From Naegleria gruberi (Eukaryota): a stretch of 64,000 bases of DNA. Shown piece after piece: positions 1,994 to 47,876 of the stretch. Each line of letters begins with the position of its first letter. Within the stretch, counting starts at the first letter, position 1. A program made the position numbers and the translations under genes. The notes beneath the pieces were generated by a model. The model saw only the letters and a list, made by a program, of their open reading frames with translations, was not told the DNA's origin and made no database searches. The stretch lies in the NCBI GenBank assembly GCA_000004985.1, contig GG738890.1. The stretch is one strand, 5' to 3'.

Positions 1994-2685
1994 GCTGTTT
2001 TTTTAGTGTATCCACTTTTCACACATTTGGATTGATACTCTACAGTAGATTCTACTCCTTCATTTGAGTGGAAACACAAATGATTGGATACGAATGACAA
2101 ACTATCCAGTATTGGTATCACTTTTGGAACTAGAATCAAAGAGGTAACATAACTCCAAATTGTTCCTGTAATCAATCCTACAGATACACCCACGAGTACT
2201 TGAGGAATAGTATGATAATGCATTGCAATTCGTGAGTAGGCCACTAGACCTGCCACTGAAAAGAGTGAAATCCTTGCAATATTTCTCCAAAAACTAGTTC
2301 TTACTTTAAACCAGCATAAACAAGTGCATGCAAAGAAAAACATAAATTGACTATGAGATGATGGCATTCCAAAATGTTCCACTAACTCTGGTGTATCCAC
2401 AGAAACATTCCTAAATTTAGCAACATAGATATTGGCTGGTCTATCCTGTGCAAATGTATGTTTCAGAAAATCATTCATCAATTCATTGACAAGTAATCCG
2501 ATCATCAAGAACAATGACTGATATTCTCTATTCACAAAAACTACTACAACAATTGCTGCTACAATAAATATTGGTAACAAGGCACACAATGCATAAATTA
2601 AAGATAATAAATTTCCCTTCTCATACACAACAAAAGTGAAACTAAATGCCTTGATGATGGCTTCTGCTTCCGAAACTGACGACAT
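1990..2685 (-). CDS. dolichyldiphosphatase (DOLPP1/CWH8-like PAP2 family lipid phosphatase)
   Basis: The 231-aa multi-pass membrane protein carries the three PAP2 motifs KHTFAQDRP, GMPSSHSQFMFFF and SRIAMHYH. GMPSSHSQFM and SYSR..YH closely match DOLPP1. Its stop overlaps the kinesin stop region, so the two 3' ends converge. Confidence 0.8.
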   Translation of the reverse strand: MSSVSEAEAIIKAFSFTFVVYEKGNLLSLIYALCALLPIFIVAAIVVVVFVNREYQSLFLMIGLLVNELMNDFLKHTFAQDRPANIYVAKFRNVSVDTPELVEHFGMPSSHSQFMFFFACTCLCWFKVRTSFWRNIARISLFSVAGLVAYSRIAMHYHTIPQVLVGVSVGLITGTIWSYVTSLILVPKVIPILDSLSFVSNHLCFHSNEGVESTVEYQSKCVKSGYTKKTA

Positions 2686-2983
2686 TTTTTAATAATATTA
2701 AATTATAGATAATATCTATCTAATGTTCTCCTCTATCACAAGACATCATTCATCTGATTGTTTATTTCAATACAACTCATCATCCAATCGAAGTAGTTTT
2801 ATCTATAAATCAGCAACATCAAGTACGATAAGCATTCTGCTGTGCTTTTCAATCAACAAAAAATAAAGCCTCAATAGAAAGTGATACTACAACATCAAAC
2901 CTTTAATATTTCTGATCCGAATAATACAAGATTTTCAACCAAAGAAACAGATAATTAATAGATCATTATTGTAAATAATAATT

Positions 2984-4242
2984 ATGGATACAAAAGGAAC
3001 TCCATTAGTGATAGATAATGTAGGTTTTCAAAAAGAAAAATATAATAAGGAAAATTTAAATCAATTAATAGGGATCTGGTCTTATTAAAGCAGGATTAGC
3101 TGGTGATGAAATTCCAAATTATGTATTTAATAATTAGTAAGTTTATTTGAGGAAACAAACGGGGTATTTACAATGATAGTGTTGGATCGACGAAACATGT
3201 CCGAGTTATGCCAGTGGCTGGACCCAAATATGATTTTTGTGTTGGAAAAGTAGCAGAGGAGAAGAGAGGAATTTTAAAACTGAAATATCCAATGGAACAC
3301 GGAGTTGTTACTGATTGGAGTGCTATGGAACGAGTTTGGGATTATTTATATGCTTGTTTAATGGATAAAGATACAGGTCTAGGTGAAACATTTAAAAGAG
3401 AAGACAGTCCTGTTCTTTTAACAGAAGCACCTCTCAATCCTAGAAAGAATAGAGAAAAGGCAGCTGACATTTTCTTTGAATCTTATAATGTTCCTAAATT
3501 ATTTATTTCTCTTCAAGCAGTTTTATCATTGTATGCTTCGGGATCAATGACAGGTGTTGTATTGGATAGTGGTGATGGTGTGACTCATTGTGTTCCAATT
3601 TATGATGGTTTTGCTATTCCCAATGCAATCACCAGAATTGACGTTGCAGGAAGAGATATTACCAATTACTTGCAATTGTTGCTGAGGAAATCAGGATATA
3701 ATTTCCATACCTCTAGTGAAATTGAAGTTGTAAAAAGTATTAAGGAGAGTGATTTAATGTATGTAGCAGCAGTGTACGAAAAGGAAATGATCATGGATGA
3801 GGAGAAGGGAATGCTTGACCCTAAACCTTACAAGTTGCCTGATGGTTCAATAATTCAACTTGGATCTGAAAGATATATGGCTCCAGAAATATTATTCAAA
3901 CCATACTTGATTGGATTGGAATATATGGGTGTTCATGAATGCGTACTTCGTTCTATTCAAACATCTGATTTGGATATTAGAAAAGATTTGTACTCTAACA
4001 TATTCTTTGCTGGTGGATCAACACTGTTTGATGGATTTTGTTCAAGAATGCTTAGTGAATTGAAGAAATCAGCTCCAAAAGACGTTCCCTCTCTCAGAAT
4101 CTCAGCTCCTAACGAAAGGGCCTATACAACATGGCTTGGTGGTTCCATTTTAGCTTCACTTCCTTCCTTTAGCGATATGTGGATTACCAAAAATGATTAT
4201 GAAGAACATGGCTCTTCAATAGTTCACAAAAAAACATTTTAA
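2984..4242 (+). CDS. actin-related protein Arp1 (centractin, dynactin subunit)-like, 3 exons
   Basis: The N-terminus [12 protein letters not shown]|[21 protein letters not shown]|YVGSTKH is split by introns at about 3020..3071 and 3137..3179. The actin-fold motifs [15 protein letters not shown] and LGGSILASL are present. The C-terminus [30 protein letters not shown]...[21 protein letters not shown] matches centractin much better than conventional actin. Exons are about join(2984..3019,3072..3136,3180..4242). Confidence 0.8.
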
Positions 4243-42241: not shown

Positions 42242-43504
42242 TTATTGTAACCTATTTTTCAAATCAGAAATGACAATGGATAAAAGTTCAGTTCTCAATG
42301 AAGTAATTCTTTCTGTTGGAATCAATTTGAATCGATTGGAAATAAAAATTTTACAATAACTAAATAAACTTTCAATATTTGCAGTTTCTGCCAAATCGAA
42401 TAGTTCACAAACATTATCAGTTGTAATGTTTGGAATAATAAAACGAGTGGCAAGATCTTCCATTTCTGTGAGCATTAATTGATTTCCCACTTGAGTTAAT
42501 TTCAATAGAGTTTCCATTGGAATACATTCACCATCCTTAGTCTTGATTGTTCCAGTATAGATATATTCGAGAATGTACTTCATAATTAGATATTCAAACT
42601 CAACTTTCATAACAAATGGATTTTGTGAAGTGTATTCCTTTGAATTATTCCATTGAGTTGACAATAAAGTCTTGAAATATAGAGATCTAGCAACTAGTAT
42701 TGCATGATTAGCATACAGAATTTGATCACTATCTGAGCAAGCAATATGTACATTGGCAAATTCTTTCATTTCTAATAATTGTACCAAATCTCTTCTCAGA
42801 AAACTATCTGATTTTGATTCTAATGCTTTTTCAAGTCTTGTGCTCATTGAGATTGGAAAATCACTCTTCATATCTTCCAAAATATCAACATCACACAGAG
42901 CCATATTATACATTCTGAAATTTTTGATCTGTGCATTGGCTCTATCATAACCATAACCACTTTCGAATAGATGAAAATTTTGATTATCATTTCTCTTCAA
43001 ATATTGCCCAAACTTTTCATATTTATCCAACTTTCCATCGATAAACAAGAATTGATAAGGTCCATAATACACTAAACCAACATGAGTCCACCTATTCAAA
43101 TCAATCTCTTGCCTACTATCAAATCCTGCATTATCTGCAACAGACGAATCACATCTACAATGCAACAAATTACTTCCCGGACACAACCAACAAGCAGGTT
43201 GTCTAACAGTGTTGGCATTTCCATGATGAAATAAAACTCTCCATTGTCCATGTCCATTTCCTAGTAAATTAATTTGAAAAGTAATGGAATATTCACGTAG
43301 GAGGCTCTGTTCAGAATGAATATCCTCACCTGTGATGGTTGTATTCTCAGGTGTGGTGAGAAATTGTGAAATGATTGGATTTTCATGTTTGATGGATGGA
43401 ATAAATGATGGTTTTACATTGAGCTGCTTTGGGGAAATAACTTGGGAGTGAGTTTGTGTGTTGATCGGAGTGGTGTCTACGAATTCTTGGCTATGAATTT
43501 GCAT
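42242..43504 (-). CDS. BTB/POZ + BACK domain protein with N-terminal beta-sandwich (ConA/LamG-like?) domain
   Basis: This 420-aa ORF has a verified ATG. The C-terminal half NVHIACSDSDQILYANHAILVARSLYFKTLLST....FVMKVEFEYLIMKYILEYIYTG matches a BTB domain, followed by a BACK-like helical region. The N-terminal ~200 aa, WRVLFHHGN...CWLCPGSN.LHCRCD...LNRWTHVGLVYYGPYQFLFIDG, has lectin/LamG-like spacing. That assignment is tentative. Confidence 0.6.
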   Translation of the reverse strand: MQIHSQEFVDTTPINTQTHSQVISPKQLNVKPSFIPSIKHENPIISQFLTTPENTTITGEDIHSEQSLLREYSITFQINLLGNGHGQWRVLFHHGNANTVRQPACWLCPGSNLLHCRCDSSVADNAGFDSRQEIDLNRWTHVGLVYYGPYQFLFIDGKLDKYEKFGQYLKRNDNQNFHLFESGYGYDRANAQIKNFRMYNMALCDVDILEDMKSDFPISMSTRLEKALESKSDSFLRRDLVQLLEMKEFANVHIACSDSDQILYANHAILVARSLYFKTLLSTQWNNSKEYTSQNPFVMKVEFEYLIMKYILEYIYTGTIKTKDGECIPMETLLKLTQVGNQLMLTEMEDLATRFIIPNITTDNVCELFDLAETANIESLFSYCKIFISNRFKLIPTERITSLRTELLSIVISDLKNRLQ

Positions 43505-43662: not shown

Positions 43663-45384
43663 TTATTTGTGTATTCTTGTTTGAATCATTTCACTGAAAA
43701 GATCACTCACACTGAATCTTATGAACATGTCTTGAAGTACGGAAGCAGTCATTTCATTCAGTACTTCATCAAATAGTAATGGTGCTTGTGAAAGGAAGAA
43801 ATCTTCCTCAACTTTATCAGAGAATATTTCAGATATTTTGAATTTCACATCTTGCCTTAATTTGTCTCTTGTGTTTACGTACATTATCGAAGATTCATCA
43901 AAAAGGAAGTACTTTCCAATTGACTCTGCAACAATTTTTGCCTTACTGAAATTATTAAACTTGGAAGTAAGGGGTTTGTACTTTAAATTAATATCCTCCC
44001 AAAATATGATATTTTCAGAGTTATATTCCTTTGAGCTCATTATCTTAAAGTATTTTCTAAAGTGATCTGTTTGGAGAATCATATTTACATCAATAGTTTT
44101 TGGATCAATATTTTGATAGAATTCAATATCTGCTGCAAAACATGATCTAGATTTGGGTATATTTCTTTCTTTTGATTTACAAATATTGAGTGAATCTTGT
44201 TCCAAAGATTGTTTCATTTCTGTGCTTAGTGATTGTAAATCTGATGTTCCTGGAATCATCTTATATCTTGGTACAGTTGAGAAGAATGATTCAATGCTCT
44301 TCATTATTCCTCCCATATTTGCAAAAGTCGTATTAACCGTAGTGACCTGATCAGTGGTAATTGGCTGTGCTGACTGCTGACTGGCCCCTTCAATTTCAAT
44401 CATTACTTCTCTTTCTGAACTTGAATGGTTATTTGAATGACTATTTTCCTTATCAGTTGCATTTGCAAGAAGACTATCAATGATCAAATCTGAAATTGGG
44501 GATGCAATTGTTTTATCCATGTGAAGAACCAAATCTTTGATTATATTTGGACATGCATCTGCATAGTTGTGTCTCCATGACTTGGCAACCTTTCCATTTC
44601 TAATGAGAAACATACATGGTTTGATTCTAAATGAATTGTTAAAATACTTGCTGTCCATTCTTACACTTTGTTCGAACCCCTCCATATGAACCTTAGCCAG
44701 TTGAGGCATCAGATGGGATATATATGTACTAATAGGTGGTAAATTATAGAAAATATTGAATTTTGATGCAAATTGCTGTTCTGGATCATTTATCCTCACC
44801 AAGTTTTGAATTTCTGGTACTTTCCACTAATTTAGTTTTGATTCGCCACAATTTTTTGAATAAACTATTCATGTGATTCAGTAATTGCTTACCTTTGCAA
44901 AGAAACTCTCTCCCTCCTCAACATCTTCAGGATAAACAACAACAGGAATAATATTGTATTGCTTGAGAGTTCTATAAAATTCCATCAATTGATTCATTCT
45001 TCTATTGCAGAATCCACATCCTTGAAATTTAACATATCTTCTGAAAATTAACAAGATATTCGATCTACAAGACATGTCATGAATATTCTCACCATAATTT
45101 GTTATCATTTGTTGTGTTACTTGTGCAATGTCGAGTGAAAGATCTTCTGCTTCCATCTCTTTACATCGTTTTGCGTTAGGGAAGGGCGTTTTGTTCGGCA
45201 CTGGATTGTAACTCTTCATGATGGTGATGCAATTACTTTGATATGTGGAATAGTATTTTTTTTTGATGCAACAAATTGAAACTGTTGGCCAACACTTGTC
45301 ATGTTGGGAAAATAGTTCATTGTTGTATGATGTTTGAAAGCATGAACTGCATGTTGGTTCATCAGCATGTTGTTGGGATAACAA
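43663..45384 (-). CDS. thioredoxin-fold CxxC domain (DCC/DUF393- or PRXL2-like) fused to an RGS domain, 2 exons
   Basis: Exons are about complement(join(43663..44826,44893..45384)) with a 66-nt intron GTAAGCAATTACTG...CTAAATTAG. The junction reads ...ESFFAK|WKVPEIQNLVRINDPEQQF. The upstream exon carries ILLIFRRYVKFQGCGFCNRRMNQLMEFYR, a CxxC redox-type motif. The downstream exon carries an RGS domain FRKYFKIMSSKEYNSENIIFWEDINLKYK....AKIVAESIGKYFLFDESSIMYVNT. The track ORF start at 44802 is a TTG inside the exon. Confidence 0.6.
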
Positions 45385-45530: not shown

Positions 45531-45962
45531 CTATTTAAAAAGTTTAAATTTCTTTACAAATTTAGCCACCAGAGAACGAGGATAAGGTTTCAAAGCAATT
45601 GAAGTTGGAATATTTTCTGGTTGTTCCACCCACAATTTATATTTCATTTGATTCTTATCCAAATCATCACGAAGGGAAAGTAATTGTTTCTCCGAAGGAC
45701 ATTCCAAAACAATTGTATGCATTTGATGGATAGCATTAGCATCTACATAATTCAAAGTAATTGGATCCTTGTCAATAAGTAAACTTTCGGAAATGATGGA
45801 AACACTGGCATGACTTCCCTGAGAGACAATTGAACCAATAGCATAGGAATAAGGTGGTTGCATTAAATCTCTTCTAATGACAATGTATTGAACAATGGTA
45901 TCGATGGTGGCATTGGCTTGTGGTGGAAGTTGAGGTTCCGATGTTGATTGATTTTCGCTCAT
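45531..45962 (-). CDS. peptidyl-tRNA hydrolase domain-containing protein 1 (PTRHD1) homolog
   Basis: This 143-aa ORF has a verified ATG. [31 protein letters not shown] aligns with human [95 protein letters not shown] aligns with [61 protein letters not shown]. Confidence 0.8.
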   Translation of the reverse strand: [143 protein letters not shown]

Positions 45963-46055: not shown

Positions 46056-47876
46056 ATGAAAAGAAGTAGAGAGGGAGGAAATTCATCATCCTCTGCTAAA
46101 AAAACAAATGATTTTTCATCTCCGAAGTCACTTGTTGATGTTTCAGCCTCATCCTCATCAACAAACACAAATTCATCAAATAGAGAAAAATTCTCTCAAC
46201 AATTAACTCAAGGAAAGGACCAAAAACGAAGAGGAACATCATCAAGTTACAGTTCTAAACAAACAAGTGGAAATTCATATGGTGATTCTAAATCTATGGT
46301 TGATAAAAAGAAGAGAAGTGAATTAATTAAACATTTCCAAGCAAATTATAATAAGAGATATGCACTTATTCAATATAGACATATTGATATTAAAGTGGAT
46401 AAGAGTTTGACTAAGAAATCAAAGGATGAATCTGAAAAGGAGTCTGCTGATGAAAGAAAAGCTACTTGTGATAATTTATATTCCCTTTGGAAGAGGAATT
46501 CTTTTATTTGGGAAATGATTGAGGATTTTACAAAGTATTCAAAATCTGGAGGAGGTGGTTTTGATTTGTTTAATTTCCCTAATTTATCTATTGAATTGAC
46601 CCATTATTTGCTTTGTTTAATTGACAGCAAAAAGAAGCCACAAGATTTGAAATCTTTGGATTATAAGGACGTTGTTACAAACAATGTTCAATTACCATCA
46701 ATTTATCACAGAGGTGCTGAAGATCAAGCAACTCATAGATTCCAATTGAGTTTTGTCAATTCGATGAGATCTGGTAAAGAGATGGTTCTCTTGAGAATGA
46801 GAGCTTACAATAGTACAGATGAGGAAATTAGTGAAGATTTGAGAAAGTTGGCAACTCATTCATCATTTGCCATTGCTAGAGCAGTATCTGTTTATCAGCT
46901 CTTTAATGATGCCAAAGTTTTACCTCACTCCTTTGAAGAGTATGGTAATTATACATGTCTATTCTCCTCTCCTTCCTTTAAAAAGACCAGTCCAGCAACT
47001 TCCTATGTTAAACATAAGGCAGAAGCTTTCAGCTTACTGAACTCTATTGCTCAATCTAACAAGGTCATTTCAAAGAATGAAGATTCCAACAAGAAGAAGA
47101 ATAAGAAACCATCCACAATCTCCAAGGATTCATCCACTACTGCTACTGACCCACAAGAAAACTCCCAACAACGTCCACTGCTCAAAATCAAAGAACGACT
47201 TCGAAGAAAGAATGCAAACCATTTCTCTCACCAACATTCAAACAAAAATAACAAGAAGAATACTTCTTCAACAATTGCAACTCCAACCAAAAAGAAGAGA
47301 AAGATGGATACCAGTGATGATACAACGATAGTAGTAGAAGCAACAGCAACAACAAGTGATGTAAATAATACAGCAACAACAACAACAATAGAAAATCAAC
47401 AATCATCATCATCGGAAGAAAAGAAGAAACAAGAAAAGACCAAACGAAAATATGAAGAATATTTACCACTGAATGAAATGTGGAAGGAATATATGAAAAC
47501 AACACTGGGACCTTCCTCTCTAGTGAATAATGAAACTTTACTCAAAGTTGATTATCATGGCTGTATATTTAAAGTTGTAAAGAGTAAATGTGGTTCCTAT
47601 GTTGGAAAGGAAGGAATCATGATTAAAGAAAGCGAGAATACATTCCAAATATTATCTAGAGAGAATAAGACTTTTACCATCCCTAAGAATGGATCAATCT
47701 TTCAATTTACATTTGAGAAGGAAGTCATTAACAAATCACCCAAAGTGAAAGACACTCCAAAACAACAACCACAATACAAGCACTTCCAAGTAGAAATAAT
47801 CGGAACACAATTTTGCTTTAGAACCTATGATAGAGCTTCAAAGAGATTCAAACGAAGAGACATTATTGATTTATAA
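46056..47876 (+). CDS. RNase P/MRP protein subunit Rpp29 (POP4) domain protein with long N-terminal extension
   Basis: This 606-aa single ORF has a verified ATG. The C-terminal ~110 aa VDYHGCIFKVVKSKCGSYVGKEGIMIKESENTFQILSRENKTFTIPKNGSIFQFTF....GTQFCFRTYDRASKRFKRRD fits the Rpp29 Sm-like fold pattern (hG..v.Vv.S.....vGi.Givv.ET.ntF.i......k.ipK....F.f........G..l..Rp.eR..KKfK). The N-terminal ~450 aa is S/K-rich with no recognised domain. Confidence 0.6.
   Translation: MKRSREGGNSSSSAKKTNDFSSPKSLVDVSASSSSTNTNSSNREKFSQQLTQGKDQKRRGTSSSYSSKQTSGNSYGDSKSMVDKKKRSELIKHFQANYNKRYALIQYRHIDIKVDKSLTKKSKDESEKESADERKATCDNLYSLWKRNSFIWEMIEDFTKYSKSGGGGFDLFNFPNLSIELTHYLLCLIDSKKKPQDLKSLDYKDVVTNNVQLPSIYHRGAEDQATHRFQLSFVNSMRSGKEMVLLRMRAYNSTDEEISEDLRKLATHSSFAIARAVSVYQLFNDAKVLPHSFEEYGNYTCLFSSPSFKKTSPATSYVKHKAEAFSLLNSIAQSNKVISKNEDSNKKKNKKPSTISKDSSTTATDPQENSQQRPLLKIKERLRRKNANHFSHQHSNKNNKKNTSSTIATPTKKKRKMDTSDDTTIVVEATATTSDVNNTATTTTIENQQSSSSEEKKKQEKTKRKYEEYLPLNEMWKEYMKTTLGPSSLVNNETLLKVDYHGCIFKVVKSKCGSYVGKEGIMIKESENTFQILSRENKTFTIPKNGSIFQFTFEKEVINKSPKVKDTPKQQPQYKHFQVEIIGTQFCFRTYDRASKRFKRRDIIDL

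What the first reader, a model, noticed from the sequence alone, without database searches (positions are those of the whole stretch)
43663..45384. Fusion of a thioredoxin-fold CxxC redox domain to an RGS domain
Splicing a 66-nt GTAAGC...TTAG intron joins an N-terminal exon to the RGS-domain exon. The N-terminal exon encodes a thioredoxin-like domain with a CGFC active-site-like motif (FRRYVKFQGCGFCNRRMNQLMEF; DCC/DUF393- or PRXL2-like). The junction is in frame and leaves no stop. A thiol-disulfide module covalently attached to a G-alpha GAP domain suggests redox control of heterotrimeric G-protein signalling. I am not aware of this domain combination having been described.
Basis: partly seen in the sequence, partly recalled or inferred. 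Interest (0 to 1): 0.55.

Follow-up and report, generated by a model that had tools for sequence, protein, structure and literature searches.

The report
Peroxiredoxin-like CxxC domain fused to RGS
A two-exon Naegleria gruberi gene really does encode one protein joining a peroxiredoxin-like CxxC redox domain to a G-protein-inactivating RGS domain, and it belongs to a sizeable, apparently undescribed family in heterolobosean amoebae that may link redox state to G-protein signalling.

Summary
On the minus strand, ATG 45219..44893, a 66-nt GTAAGC…TTAG intron (44892..44827) and 44826..43663 give a 496-aa product. The organism is Naegleria gruberi (Heterolobosea, not Amoebozoa).

The intron lies at exactly the same phase-0 codon boundary in the N. 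fowleri and N. lovaniensis homologues. Related genes in Acrasis kona and in metagenome contigs encode both domains in one uninterrupted ORF.

The C-terminal RGS domain falls below Pfam's threshold in this protein but is clear at family level. It keeps the RGS4 Gα-contact residues E87, N88, N128, D163 and R167.

About 50 clusters at 50% identity carry the same fusion, and 42 of 47 keep both cysteines. The public N. gruberi model is truncated (348 aa) and hides the fusion. No paper describing the combination was found.

Redox control of GAP activity is plausible but untested. I rate it a new variant of a known kind, of moderate interest.

The parts
44893..45219 (-). Exon 1 of the coding sequence (aa 1-109), from the first ATG (45219-45217) to the 5' splice site. 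Encodes a poorly conserved N-terminal tail plus beta1, the CxxC loop, alpha1, beta2 and alpha2 of the peroxiredoxin-like domain.
   Evidence: P0006 is the same ORF called from MKSYNP and reading into the intron.
45007..45018 (-). Codons for C68-G-F-C71, the CxxC motif at the N-terminus of helix alpha1.
   Evidence: Sequence read directly. These are invariant columns in the homologue alignment. Both Cys are kept in 42 of 47 RGS-fused representatives. In the model, C25 and C28 sit at the start of helix 26-37.
44827..44892 (-). 66-nt phase-0 spliceosomal intron, GTAAGC...TTAG, with three in-frame stops if retained.
   Evidence: Intron position is conserved in N. fowleri (85 nt) and N. lovaniensis (53 nt). 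No tblastx similarity inside it.
43663..44826 (-). Exon 2 (aa 110-496 plus stop): the rest of the peroxiredoxin-like domain, the linker and the RGS domain.
   Evidence: 100% identical to the deposited N. gruberi protein P0001 from aa 149 onward.
44515..45090 (-). PRX-like2 / AhpC-TSA_2-type thioredoxin-fold domain (aa 44-213), interrupted by the intron. Includes the conserved proline loop IKP179CMF (44625..44608).
44083..44514 (-). Linker (aa 214-357), mostly low-complexity and low-confidence. It contains a conserved predicted helical segment, FFSTVPRYK...SDLQSLSTEMKQSLEQ (aa 290-319; 44286..44197).
   Evidence: Alignment A1 (invariant S310, M313, E318, K326). Full-length AF2 gives pLDDT below 50 over 213-313 and a helix at 306-329.
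43690..44082 (-). RGS domain (aa 358-488) with NSENIIFW (44022..43999), YVNTRD (43881..43864) and DMFIRF (43731..43714). These carry the equivalents of RGS4 E87/N88, N128 and D163/R167.
   Evidence: Pfam RGS E 0.0016, 19.2 bits, below the 23.9 cutoff. Homologues are above the cutoff. The family profile hits RGS12, RGS14, RGS9 and RGS10 structures, best E 1.1e-6.

Best explanation
**Shown.** Window 45219..43663 (minus strand) is a single two-exon Naegleria gruberi gene for a soluble protein of about 496 aa.
- Its N-terminal 170-residue domain is a thioredoxin/peroxiredoxin-fold module of the PRX-like2 (Pfam AhpC-TSA_2, PRXL2A/B/C) family with an intact CxxC (C68, C71).
- A largely disordered linker of about 145 residues follows.
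- The C-terminal domain is an RGS domain that retains the residues by which RGS4 contacts the G-alpha switch regions.
- It is one member of a heterolobosean family in which this pairing is maintained across at least about 50 sequence clusters.

**Inferred.**
- The RGS domain binds activated G-alpha-GTP and accelerates GTP hydrolysis.
- The CxxC domain cycles between dithiol and disulfide. It would be oxidised by H2O2 or an organic/lipid peroxide, as in PRXL2B and peroxiredoxins, and re-reduced by the thioredoxin system.
- Through the linker, this cycling changes the GAP's activity, partner binding or localisation, so that G-protein signal duration is tuned to cellular redox or peroxide state.

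Confidence in gene structure and domain identities is about 0.95. Confidence in the redox-gated-GAP mechanism is about 0.35. The overall figure given for this explanation (0.5) is a compromise between the two.
For: **Gene structure**
- The splice is in frame, and the unspliced read-through contains stops.
- Intron position and phase are identical in N. fowleri and N. lovaniensis, while intron length and sequence differ.
- Similarity to those loci stops at the intron borders.
- The fold is complete only after splicing: strands 76-79, 137-142 and 145-151 and helices 98-114 and 159-169 of the model come from exon 2.
- Both domains lie in one uninterrupted ORF in Acrasis kona P0019 and in metagenome proteins P0008, P0038 and P0117.

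**N-terminal domain**
- AF2 gives pLDDT 79.9 and pTM 0.78.
- The Foldseek top hit is PRXL2B, followed by Prx6, BCP and Prx5.
- hhalign of 20 fused N-domains against 29 stand-alone proteins gives probability 100% and E 1.5e-38, with the CxxC and the proline loop aligned. 28 of those 29 hit PF13911.
- The CxxC is kept in 42 of 47 fused representatives, which indicates selection on the thiols.

**RGS domain**
- Pfam RGS scores are above threshold in homologues.
- The family profile hits solved RGS domains.
- The equivalents of E87, N88, N128, D163 and R167 are present in the query. Among 52 family members they occur in 51, 41, 49, 38 and 43 respectively.

**Other**
- No transmembrane segment.
- PRXL2B uses its CxxC to reduce a peroxide and is stabilised differently in its reduced and oxidised states (PMC12938796).
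Against: - There is no transcript, proteomic or biochemical evidence for the N. gruberi gene itself. The deposited gene model (348 aa) omits the CxxC part.
- The query's own Pfam matches are below threshold: RGS 19.2 bits against 23.9, AhpC-TSA E 0.042, and no PF13911 hit.
- The full-length AF2 model is poor (pLDDT 50) and shows no confident interdomain contact. There is therefore no structural basis yet for allosteric coupling across a disordered linker of about 145 residues.
- Five of 47 fused relatives have lost one cysteine, so the thiol pair is not obligatory for every member.
- Naegleria has a huge RGS expansion (229 RGS proteins in N. gruberi, PMC3971589) with many lineage-specific domain shufflings, so co-occurrence alone is weak evidence for functional coupling.
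Confidence: 0.5

Rival explanations
1. Effector or targeting model. The N-terminal domain is the working enzyme, a thiol-dependent peroxide or endoperoxide (oxylipin) reductase like PRXL2B. The RGS domain mainly serves to dock it onto activated G-alpha at the membrane. The protein would then be a G-alpha-recruited redox enzyme rather than a redox-regulated GAP. This is analogous to RGS-RhoGEFs and GRK2, where the RGS-type domain recruits another activity.
For: - The closest solved structure by Foldseek is an enzyme, human prostamide/PGF synthase, with the same CxxC placement.
- The CxxC is as well conserved in fused members (42/47) as in stand-alone ones (94/97).
- N. fowleri has an RGS-RhoGEF G-alpha effector (PMC9283941).
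Against: - The RGS domain keeps the GAP-type contact residues, including the Asn128 equivalent (49/52). RGS-homology domains that act only as docking modules often lose these (own knowledge).
- No substrate-binding features were examined.
- Naegleria prostanoid-like lipid chemistry is not established here.
Confidence: 0.2
2. Redox-inert scaffold. The peroxiredoxin-like domain is used only as a protein-binding module, as the thioredoxin-fold domain of phosducin binds G-beta-gamma. The cysteines would be structural or vestigial.
For: - Thioredoxin-fold domains without redox function already exist in G-protein signalling, for example phosducin and phosducin-like proteins (own knowledge; phosducin is discussed in PMC3971589).
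- Five of 47 fused relatives lack one Cys.
- The Naegleria subgroup has a 3-residue insertion in the loop before the CxxC.
Against: - In an alignment of 20 fused N-domains, the only invariant columns are the two cysteines. Those 20 were picked from members with an intact motif.
- 42 of 47 across all fused representatives keep both, at sequence identities down to about 15-20%.
- The conserved proline loop is kept.
Confidence: 0.12
3. There is no fusion. 45384..44878 and 44802..43663 are two adjacent genes, or a pseudogene fragment plus an RGS gene, and the GT..AG pair is fortuitous.
For: The deposited N. gruberi protein model starts at an internal Met in exon 2 (348 aa). No transcript data were available here.
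Against: - Exon 1 alone encodes only half a thioredoxin fold.
- The deposited model starts in the middle of that fold.
- Intron position is conserved in two other species.
- Intronless relatives encode both domains in one ORF.
- The alignment across the junction has no gap.
Confidence: 0.02

Closest known systems
PRXL2 / PRX-like2 family (Pfam PF13911 AhpC-TSA_2; human PRXL2A/PAMM, PRXL2B prostamide/PGF synthase, PRXL2C)
   Same: - Thioredoxin/peroxiredoxin fold.
- A CxxC at the N-terminus of the first helix, preceded by a basic F-x-R(R) strand.
- A conserved proline loop before the penultimate strand.
- Profile-profile E 1.5e-38 to PF13911-matching proteins.
- Best Foldseek hit is PRXL2B.
   Different: - The query itself does not reach any Pfam PF13911 score.
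- The Naegleria subgroup has a 3-residue insertion before the CxxC, and 'CPNI/CPDI' replaces the family's 'RPDY' motif near the C-terminus.
- It is fused to a linker and an RGS domain, whereas the characterised PRXL2 proteins are single-domain.
Canonical peroxiredoxins (Prx6, BCP/PrxQ, Prx5; Pfam PF00578)
   Different: The PxxxT/SxxC active-site signature is absent: Cys68 occupies the Thr position and there is no Pro at -7 (read from the sequence). The motif is a thioredoxin-like CxxC.
Multidomain RGS proteins (R7, R12, RGS-RhoGEF, SNX13/14/25, GRKs, plant and Naegleria 7TM-RGS)
   Same: The C-terminal RGS domain has conserved G-alpha-contact residues. The general design is an RGS domain coupled to an accessory regulatory or catalytic module. 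Naegleria is known for a large RGS repertoire: 79 non-7TM RGS proteins in N. fowleri (PMC9283941) and 229 in N. gruberi (PMC3971589).
   Different: The accessory module here is a thiol-redox domain. No paper in the searchable library pairs 'RGS domain' with 'peroxiredoxin-like', and the four that pair it with 'thioredoxin-like' are unrelated.
Known redox inputs to RGS proteins (own knowledge): Cys2 oxidation and arginylation of RGS4/5/16 in the N-degron pathway; thiol-reactive allosteric inhibition of RGS4 and RGS14
   Same: Cysteine chemistry modulates RGS abundance or activity. RGS14 thiol sensitivity is mentioned in PMC12495443.
   Different: Those act on single cysteines within or next to the RGS domain. 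Here a dedicated, separately folded CxxC domain is covalently attached.
Phosducin / phosducin-like proteins
   Same: A thioredoxin-fold domain used in heterotrimeric G-protein signalling (own knowledge).
   Different: Phosducin lacks a CxxC, binds G-beta-gamma and has no RGS domain. It was not among the top fold hits.

Membership tests
RGS domain (Pfam PF00615) | Significant match to the RGS sequence profile | tested here: met
   The query alone is sub-threshold (E 0.0016, 19.2 bits against 23.9). Homologues P0002-P0005 carry precomputed PF00615. Seven relatives score 42-64 bits. A profile of five family RGS domains hits RGS12 (E 1.1e-6), RGS14, RGS9, RGS10, EhRGS-RhoGEF and Axin structures.
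RGS domain (Pfam PF00615) | G-alpha switch-contact residues of GAP-competent RGS domains (RGS4 E87, N88, N128, D163, R167) | tested here: met
   A MAFFT alignment of 52 family RGS domains with RGS4 shows the query has E, N, N, D and R at these positions. Family counts are 51, 41, 49, 38 and 43 of 52.
RGS domain (Pfam PF00615) | All-helical nine-helix bundle fold | tested here: inconclusive
   The full-length AF2 model predicts only helices over aa 356-494, but at pLDDT about 45-64. This was too low for a fold search.
RGS domain (Pfam PF00615) | GTPase-accelerating activity on G-alpha | not testable with these tools
   Needs single-turnover GTPase assays with Naegleria G-alpha subunits.
PRX-like2 / AhpC-TSA_2 (Pfam PF13911; PRXL2) | Direct match of the protein to the PF13911 profile | tested here: not met
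   No PF13911 hit at E<=1 for the query. The only related match is AhpC-TSA, E 0.042.
PRX-like2 / AhpC-TSA_2 (Pfam PF13911; PRXL2) | Homology to bona fide PF13911 proteins by profile-profile comparison | tested here: met
   hhalign A4 (20 fused N-domains) against A5 (29 stand-alone proteins, 28 matching PF13911): probability 100%, E 1.5e-38, 152 columns. The HMM of the domain finds 159 representatives at E<=1e-3, many with the FLRHFGCxFCR signature.
PRX-like2 / AhpC-TSA_2 (Pfam PF13911; PRXL2) | Thioredoxin/peroxiredoxin fold | tested here: met
PRX-like2 / AhpC-TSA_2 (Pfam PF13911; PRXL2) | CxxC motif at the N-terminus of helix alpha1, plus the conserved proline loop | tested here: met
   C68xxC71 is invariant among close homologues and aligns with the family's GCxFC. 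It sits at the start of helix 26-37 of the model. P179 aligns with the family's near-invariant MPG proline.
PRX-like2 / AhpC-TSA_2 (Pfam PF13911; PRXL2) | Thiol-dependent reductase or peroxidase activity | not testable with these tools
   Needs enzymology.
Canonical peroxiredoxin (PF00578) | PxxxT/SxxC active-site signature with a peroxidatic Cys | tested here: not met
   The sequence FRRYVKFQGCGFCNRR has Cys, not Thr/Ser, three residues before C71, and no Pro seven residues before either Cys (read).

The most novel reading that the evidence does not exclude
The peroxiredoxin-like domain is a built-in peroxide sensor. Oxidation of C68/C71 by H2O2 or lipid hydroperoxides switches the attached RGS GAP on or off, or relocates it. 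This would give heterolobosean amoebae a direct, single-polypeptide link from oxidant level to heterotrimeric G-protein signal duration. With dozens of paralogues, it would amount to a whole redox-tuned layer of G-protein regulation that has no described counterpart in animals, fungi or plants.
Probability: 0.25. Interest if true: 0.7.

Novelty: new variant of a known kind. Interest (0 to 1): 0.45.

Why it matters
RGS proteins set how long G-alpha stays active, and their accessory domains show what inputs control that timing. A dedicated CxxC peroxiredoxin-like domain attached to an RGS domain, kept over about 50 sequence clusters, suggests that redox or peroxide state is such an input in Naegleria and Acrasis. 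These organisms switch between amoeboid, flagellate and cyst forms and meet oxidative stress.

- It gives a directly testable system: recombinant protein, Naegleria G-alpha subunits already purified by others, and Cys-to-Ser mutants. This could show how thiol chemistry is wired into G-protein signalling.
- N. fowleri has homologues, including paralogues of about 1000 aa, so the family is also relevant to G-protein-directed drug ideas for that pathogen.
- On the practical side, the deposited N. gruberi gene model is truncated and should be corrected.

Tried and rejected
- **Single-sequence searches are nearly blind here.** Pfam gives only sub-threshold RGS and AhpC-TSA matches. phmmer against PDB gives only a BCP peroxiredoxin at E 0.65.
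- **hmmsearch of PDB with N-domain profiles failed.** The 5-sequence profile found nothing. The 20-sequence profile found only E>0.1 hits to 1-Cys Prx and tryparedoxin. Fold and profile-profile methods were needed.
- **Word-indexed homologue searches with N-domain alignments returned few proteins**. The exhaustive HMMER scan was what revealed the family.
- **The full-length AF2 model was too poor** (pLDDT 50) to say anything about interdomain contacts or to fold-search the RGS part.
- **The afdb50 fold library was unavailable**, so the taxonomic spread could not be read from AlphaFold DB.
- **DCC/DUF393 rejected.** No profile or fold support.
- **Canonical peroxiredoxin rejected.** The active-site signature is absent.
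- **Two separate genes rejected.** See the rival explanations.
- **Microsynteny is not conserved.** The N. fowleri and N. lovaniensis homologues are flanked by NADAR and MCM genes, which are absent from this window. Strict orthology of P0002/P0003 is therefore not proven.
- **Literature gap.** Anantharaman et al. 2011 (Gene 475:63, PMC3396428), the most likely place for an earlier mention of this architecture, is not held in the library. Prior description there cannot be excluded.
- **Locus tags found nothing.** Searches for the N. fowleri and N. lovaniensis locus tags returned no papers.
Full report
**1. What is in the sequence**

The feature lies on the minus strand.
- An ORF runs from 45384 down to 44878. 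Its first ATG is at 45219 (MKSYNPVPNK...).
- The 66 nt at 44892..44827 read GTAAGC...TTAG, have 27% GC, and contain three in-frame stops if retained.
- Removing them joins ...EEGESFFAK (aa 109) in phase 0 to WKVPEIQNLVRINDP.... The frame then continues to the stop at 43663.
- The product is 496 aa, with C68-G-F-C71 encoded at 45018..45007.

The top 165 nt of its range have no start codon and are probably 5' UTR.

**2. Organism and existing annotation**

The exon-2 part is 100% identical to a deposited 'predicted protein [Naegleria gruberi]' of 348 aa (P0001). That model begins at the internal Met149 (window 44709), in the middle of the N-terminal fold. The public model is therefore truncated and hides the fusion.

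Naegleria belongs to Discoba/Heterolobosea, not Amoebozoa.

**3. Is the splice real?**

Annotated homologues all have the same N-terminal LLIFRRF..GCxxCNRR domain and a C-terminal RGS domain. They are N. lovaniensis P0002 (549 aa) and P0004 (626 aa), N. fowleri P0003 (550 aa) and an ENA protein P0005 (435 aa). All align across the junction without a gap.

Further evidence:
- I recovered the N. fowleri and N. lovaniensis loci and reconstructed their gene structures. Each has one GTAAGT...AG intron (85 and 53 nt), in phase 0, at exactly the homologous codon boundary: EEFFNS|FDIPEIK against ESFFAK|WKVPEIQ.
- tblastx of those loci against the window shows similarity ending at 44881/44908 and resuming at 44829/44820.
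- Prokaryote-style ORF calls from other Naegleria-like DNA (P0006, P0007, P0014) terminate just after reading into an intron at this site. P0013 starts just after it.
- More distant relatives encode both domains in one uninterrupted ORF. These are Acrasis kona P0019 (1167 nt for 388 aa plus stop), metagenome P0008 (1263 nt for 420 aa plus stop), P0038 and P0117.
- The thioredoxin-like fold is complete only after splicing (section 4).

The 'two genes' alternative is effectively excluded, although no N. gruberi transcript was examined.

**4. The N-terminal domain**

Single-sequence searches are almost silent: AhpC-TSA at E 0.042, and a BCP peroxiredoxin at E 0.65.

*Fold.* An AlphaFold2 model of aa 44-213, built with the five-sequence alignment, is confident (pLDDT 79.9, pTM 0.78).
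- Its order of elements is beta-alpha-beta-alpha-beta...beta-beta-alpha, and the CxxC sits at the N-terminus of the first long helix.
- Exon 1 ends inside the second helix region (model residue 66). Three of the five strands come from exon 2.
- The Foldseek best PDB hit is human prostamide/prostaglandin F synthase (PRXL2B, 9usa; E 8e-7, TM 0.64). Prx6, BCP and Prx5 follow.

*Family.* An exhaustive HMMER scan of 1.84 billion representatives with the domain profile found 159 proteins at E<=1e-3. Many are proteins of about 180 aa with the signature FLRHFGCxFCRE. Of 29 such proteins, 28 match Pfam PF13911 (AhpC-TSA_2). hhalign between 20 RGS-fused N-domains and these 29 proteins gives probability 100% and E 1.5e-38 over 152 columns. 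The CxxC and the conserved proline loop (IKP179CMF against QMPGVF) are aligned.

*Conclusion.* The domain is a divergent member of the PRX-like2/PRXL2 family.
- It is not a canonical peroxiredoxin, because it has no PxxxT/SxxC signature.
- Nothing supports DCC/DUF393.
- The Naegleria subgroup has a three-residue insertion in the loop before the CxxC.
- In PRXL2B the CxxC (C44/C47) reduces the endoperoxide of PGH2 and cycles through a disulfide (PMC12938796).

**5. The RGS domain**

The query alone scores 19.2 bits, below Pfam's 23.9 cutoff. At family level the assignment is clear.
- Homologues carry PF00615, and seven relatives score 42-64 bits.
- A profile of five family RGS domains hits solved RGS12 (E 1.1e-6), RGS14, RGS9, RGS10, EhRGS-RhoGEF, RGS1, RGS8 and Axin.

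The query has the RGS4 residue at each of the G-alpha-contact positions E87, N88, N128, D163 and R167.

| RGS4 residue | Query residue | Family members with that residue (of 52) |
|---|---|---|
| E87 | E | 51 |
| N88 | N | 41 |
| N128 | N | 49 |
| D163 | D | 38 |
| R167 | R | 43 |

From the established RGS4-Gi-alpha1 structure (own knowledge), this pattern is expected of a GAP-competent RGS domain rather than an Axin- or SNX-like scaffold. GAP activity itself is inferred.

**6. The rest of the protein**

- Residues 214-357 are low-complexity and modelled at pLDDT below 50. The exception is a conserved segment (FFS.VPRYK...LQ..S.EMK, aa 290-325) predicted as a helix.
- No 19-residue window exceeds a Kyte-Doolittle mean of 1.0, so the protein is predicted to be soluble.
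- The full-length model (pLDDT 50, pTM 0.38) gives no usable information on interdomain contacts.

**7. How widespread is the fusion?**

Of the 150 best representatives matched by the N-domain profile, plus the earlier homologues, 54 also match an RGS profile built from this family at E<1e-5.
- Every representative that carries an organism name is heterolobosean. They come from N. fowleri and N. lovaniensis (several paralogues, including proteins of about 1000 aa, P0009/P0012) and from Acrasis kona (P0019, P0025, P0035).
- The others come from EukProt, JGI metagenomes and Logan assemblies. They sit on intron-poor eukaryotic contigs that often carry further RGS genes.
- Both cysteines are kept in 42 of 47 fused representatives, and in 94 of 97 non-fused ones.

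**8. Literature**

- N. fowleri encodes 79 RGS-domain proteins besides the 7TM-RGS class (PMC9283941).
- N. gruberi has 229 RGS proteins. Lineage-specific RGS architectures are the rule (PMC3971589).
- Neither paper mentions thioredoxin, peroxiredoxin or redox.
- No paper in the library contains both 'RGS domain' and 'peroxiredoxin-like'. The four that contain both 'RGS domain' and 'thioredoxin-like' are unrelated.
- The Aravind-group survey of 2011 could not be read, so an earlier listing of the architecture cannot be ruled out.

**9. Interpretation**

*Shown:* one gene, one polypeptide, a PRX-like2 CxxC domain plus an RGS domain, conserved as a family.

*Inferred (about 0.35):* the RGS domain is a G-alpha GAP, and the dithiol/disulfide state of the CxxC domain modulates its activity, partners or location. 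This would be by analogy with peroxiredoxin- and GPx-based redox relays and with the redox-dependent stability change of PRXL2B.

*Alternatives:*
- The N-domain is the catalytic business end, recruited to active G-alpha by the RGS domain (about 0.2).
- The N-domain is a redox-inert binding module like phosducin's thioredoxin domain (about 0.12).

**10. Verdict**

It is a new variant of a known kind: a multidomain RGS protein with a previously undiscussed thiol-redox accessory domain. Against the background of Naegleria's very large and architecturally promiscuous RGS repertoire, and without functional data, I rate interest at 0.45.

Noticed in passing
window 43663..44709 (-): The deposited N. 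gruberi protein model (P0001, 348 aa) starts at internal Met149 (MPQLAKVHMEGF...), in the middle of the peroxiredoxin-like fold. The public gene model is truncated and lacks exon 1 and the CxxC.
   Followed up: yes
window 44197..44286 (-), aa 290-319: A conserved linker segment, FFS(T/K)xPRY(K/R)...LQxxSxEMK, predicted helical, lies between the two domains. It is conserved across Naegleria paralogues and its function is unknown. It could be a membrane- or partner-binding helix.
   Followed up: partly
window 42242..43504 (-): The downstream neighbour is a 420-aa protein with a Laminin_G_3 (concanavalin A-like) domain followed by a BTB/POZ domain (Pfam E 1.3e-7 and 5.6e-13).
   Followed up: partly
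window 45531..45962 (-) and 46056..47876 (+): The upstream neighbours are a 143-aa PTH2-type peptidyl-tRNA hydrolase and a 606-aa protein. In the latter, only the last ~100 residues match RNase P/MRP subunit p29, after a long Ser/Lys-rich N-terminal extension.
   Followed up: partly
L001 (N. fowleri) and L002 (N. lovaniensis) against the window: The homologous genes in N. fowleri and N. lovaniensis sit between a NADAR gene and an MCM gene. Neither has any match in the 64-kb window. Local gene order is therefore not conserved, or these are co-orthologues or paralogues rather than strict orthologues.
   Followed up: partly
L007 2504..4947 (-): On a metagenome protist contig, a 115-aa ORF matching PF13911 (4600-4947) lies just upstream, on the same strand, of a 561-aa ORF with a weak RGS match (2504-4189). 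This may be a second, intron-split copy of the same fusion. Two more RGS genes are on the same 11-kb contig.
   Followed up: no
proteins P0009 and P0012 (N. fowleri, N. lovaniensis; ~1000 aa): These long paralogues carry the PRX-like2 domain at aa ~200-420 and the RGS domain at the extreme C-terminus. About 450 residues between them have no Pfam match.
   Followed up: no
proteins P0042, P0070, P0074, P0083, P0104 etc. (~310-320 aa): A separate group of hits has the PRX-like2 domain at the C-terminus (aa ~155-305), after an N-terminal region with a faint MASE2-like match. This is a different, probably membrane-associated architecture of the same redox domain.
   Followed up: no
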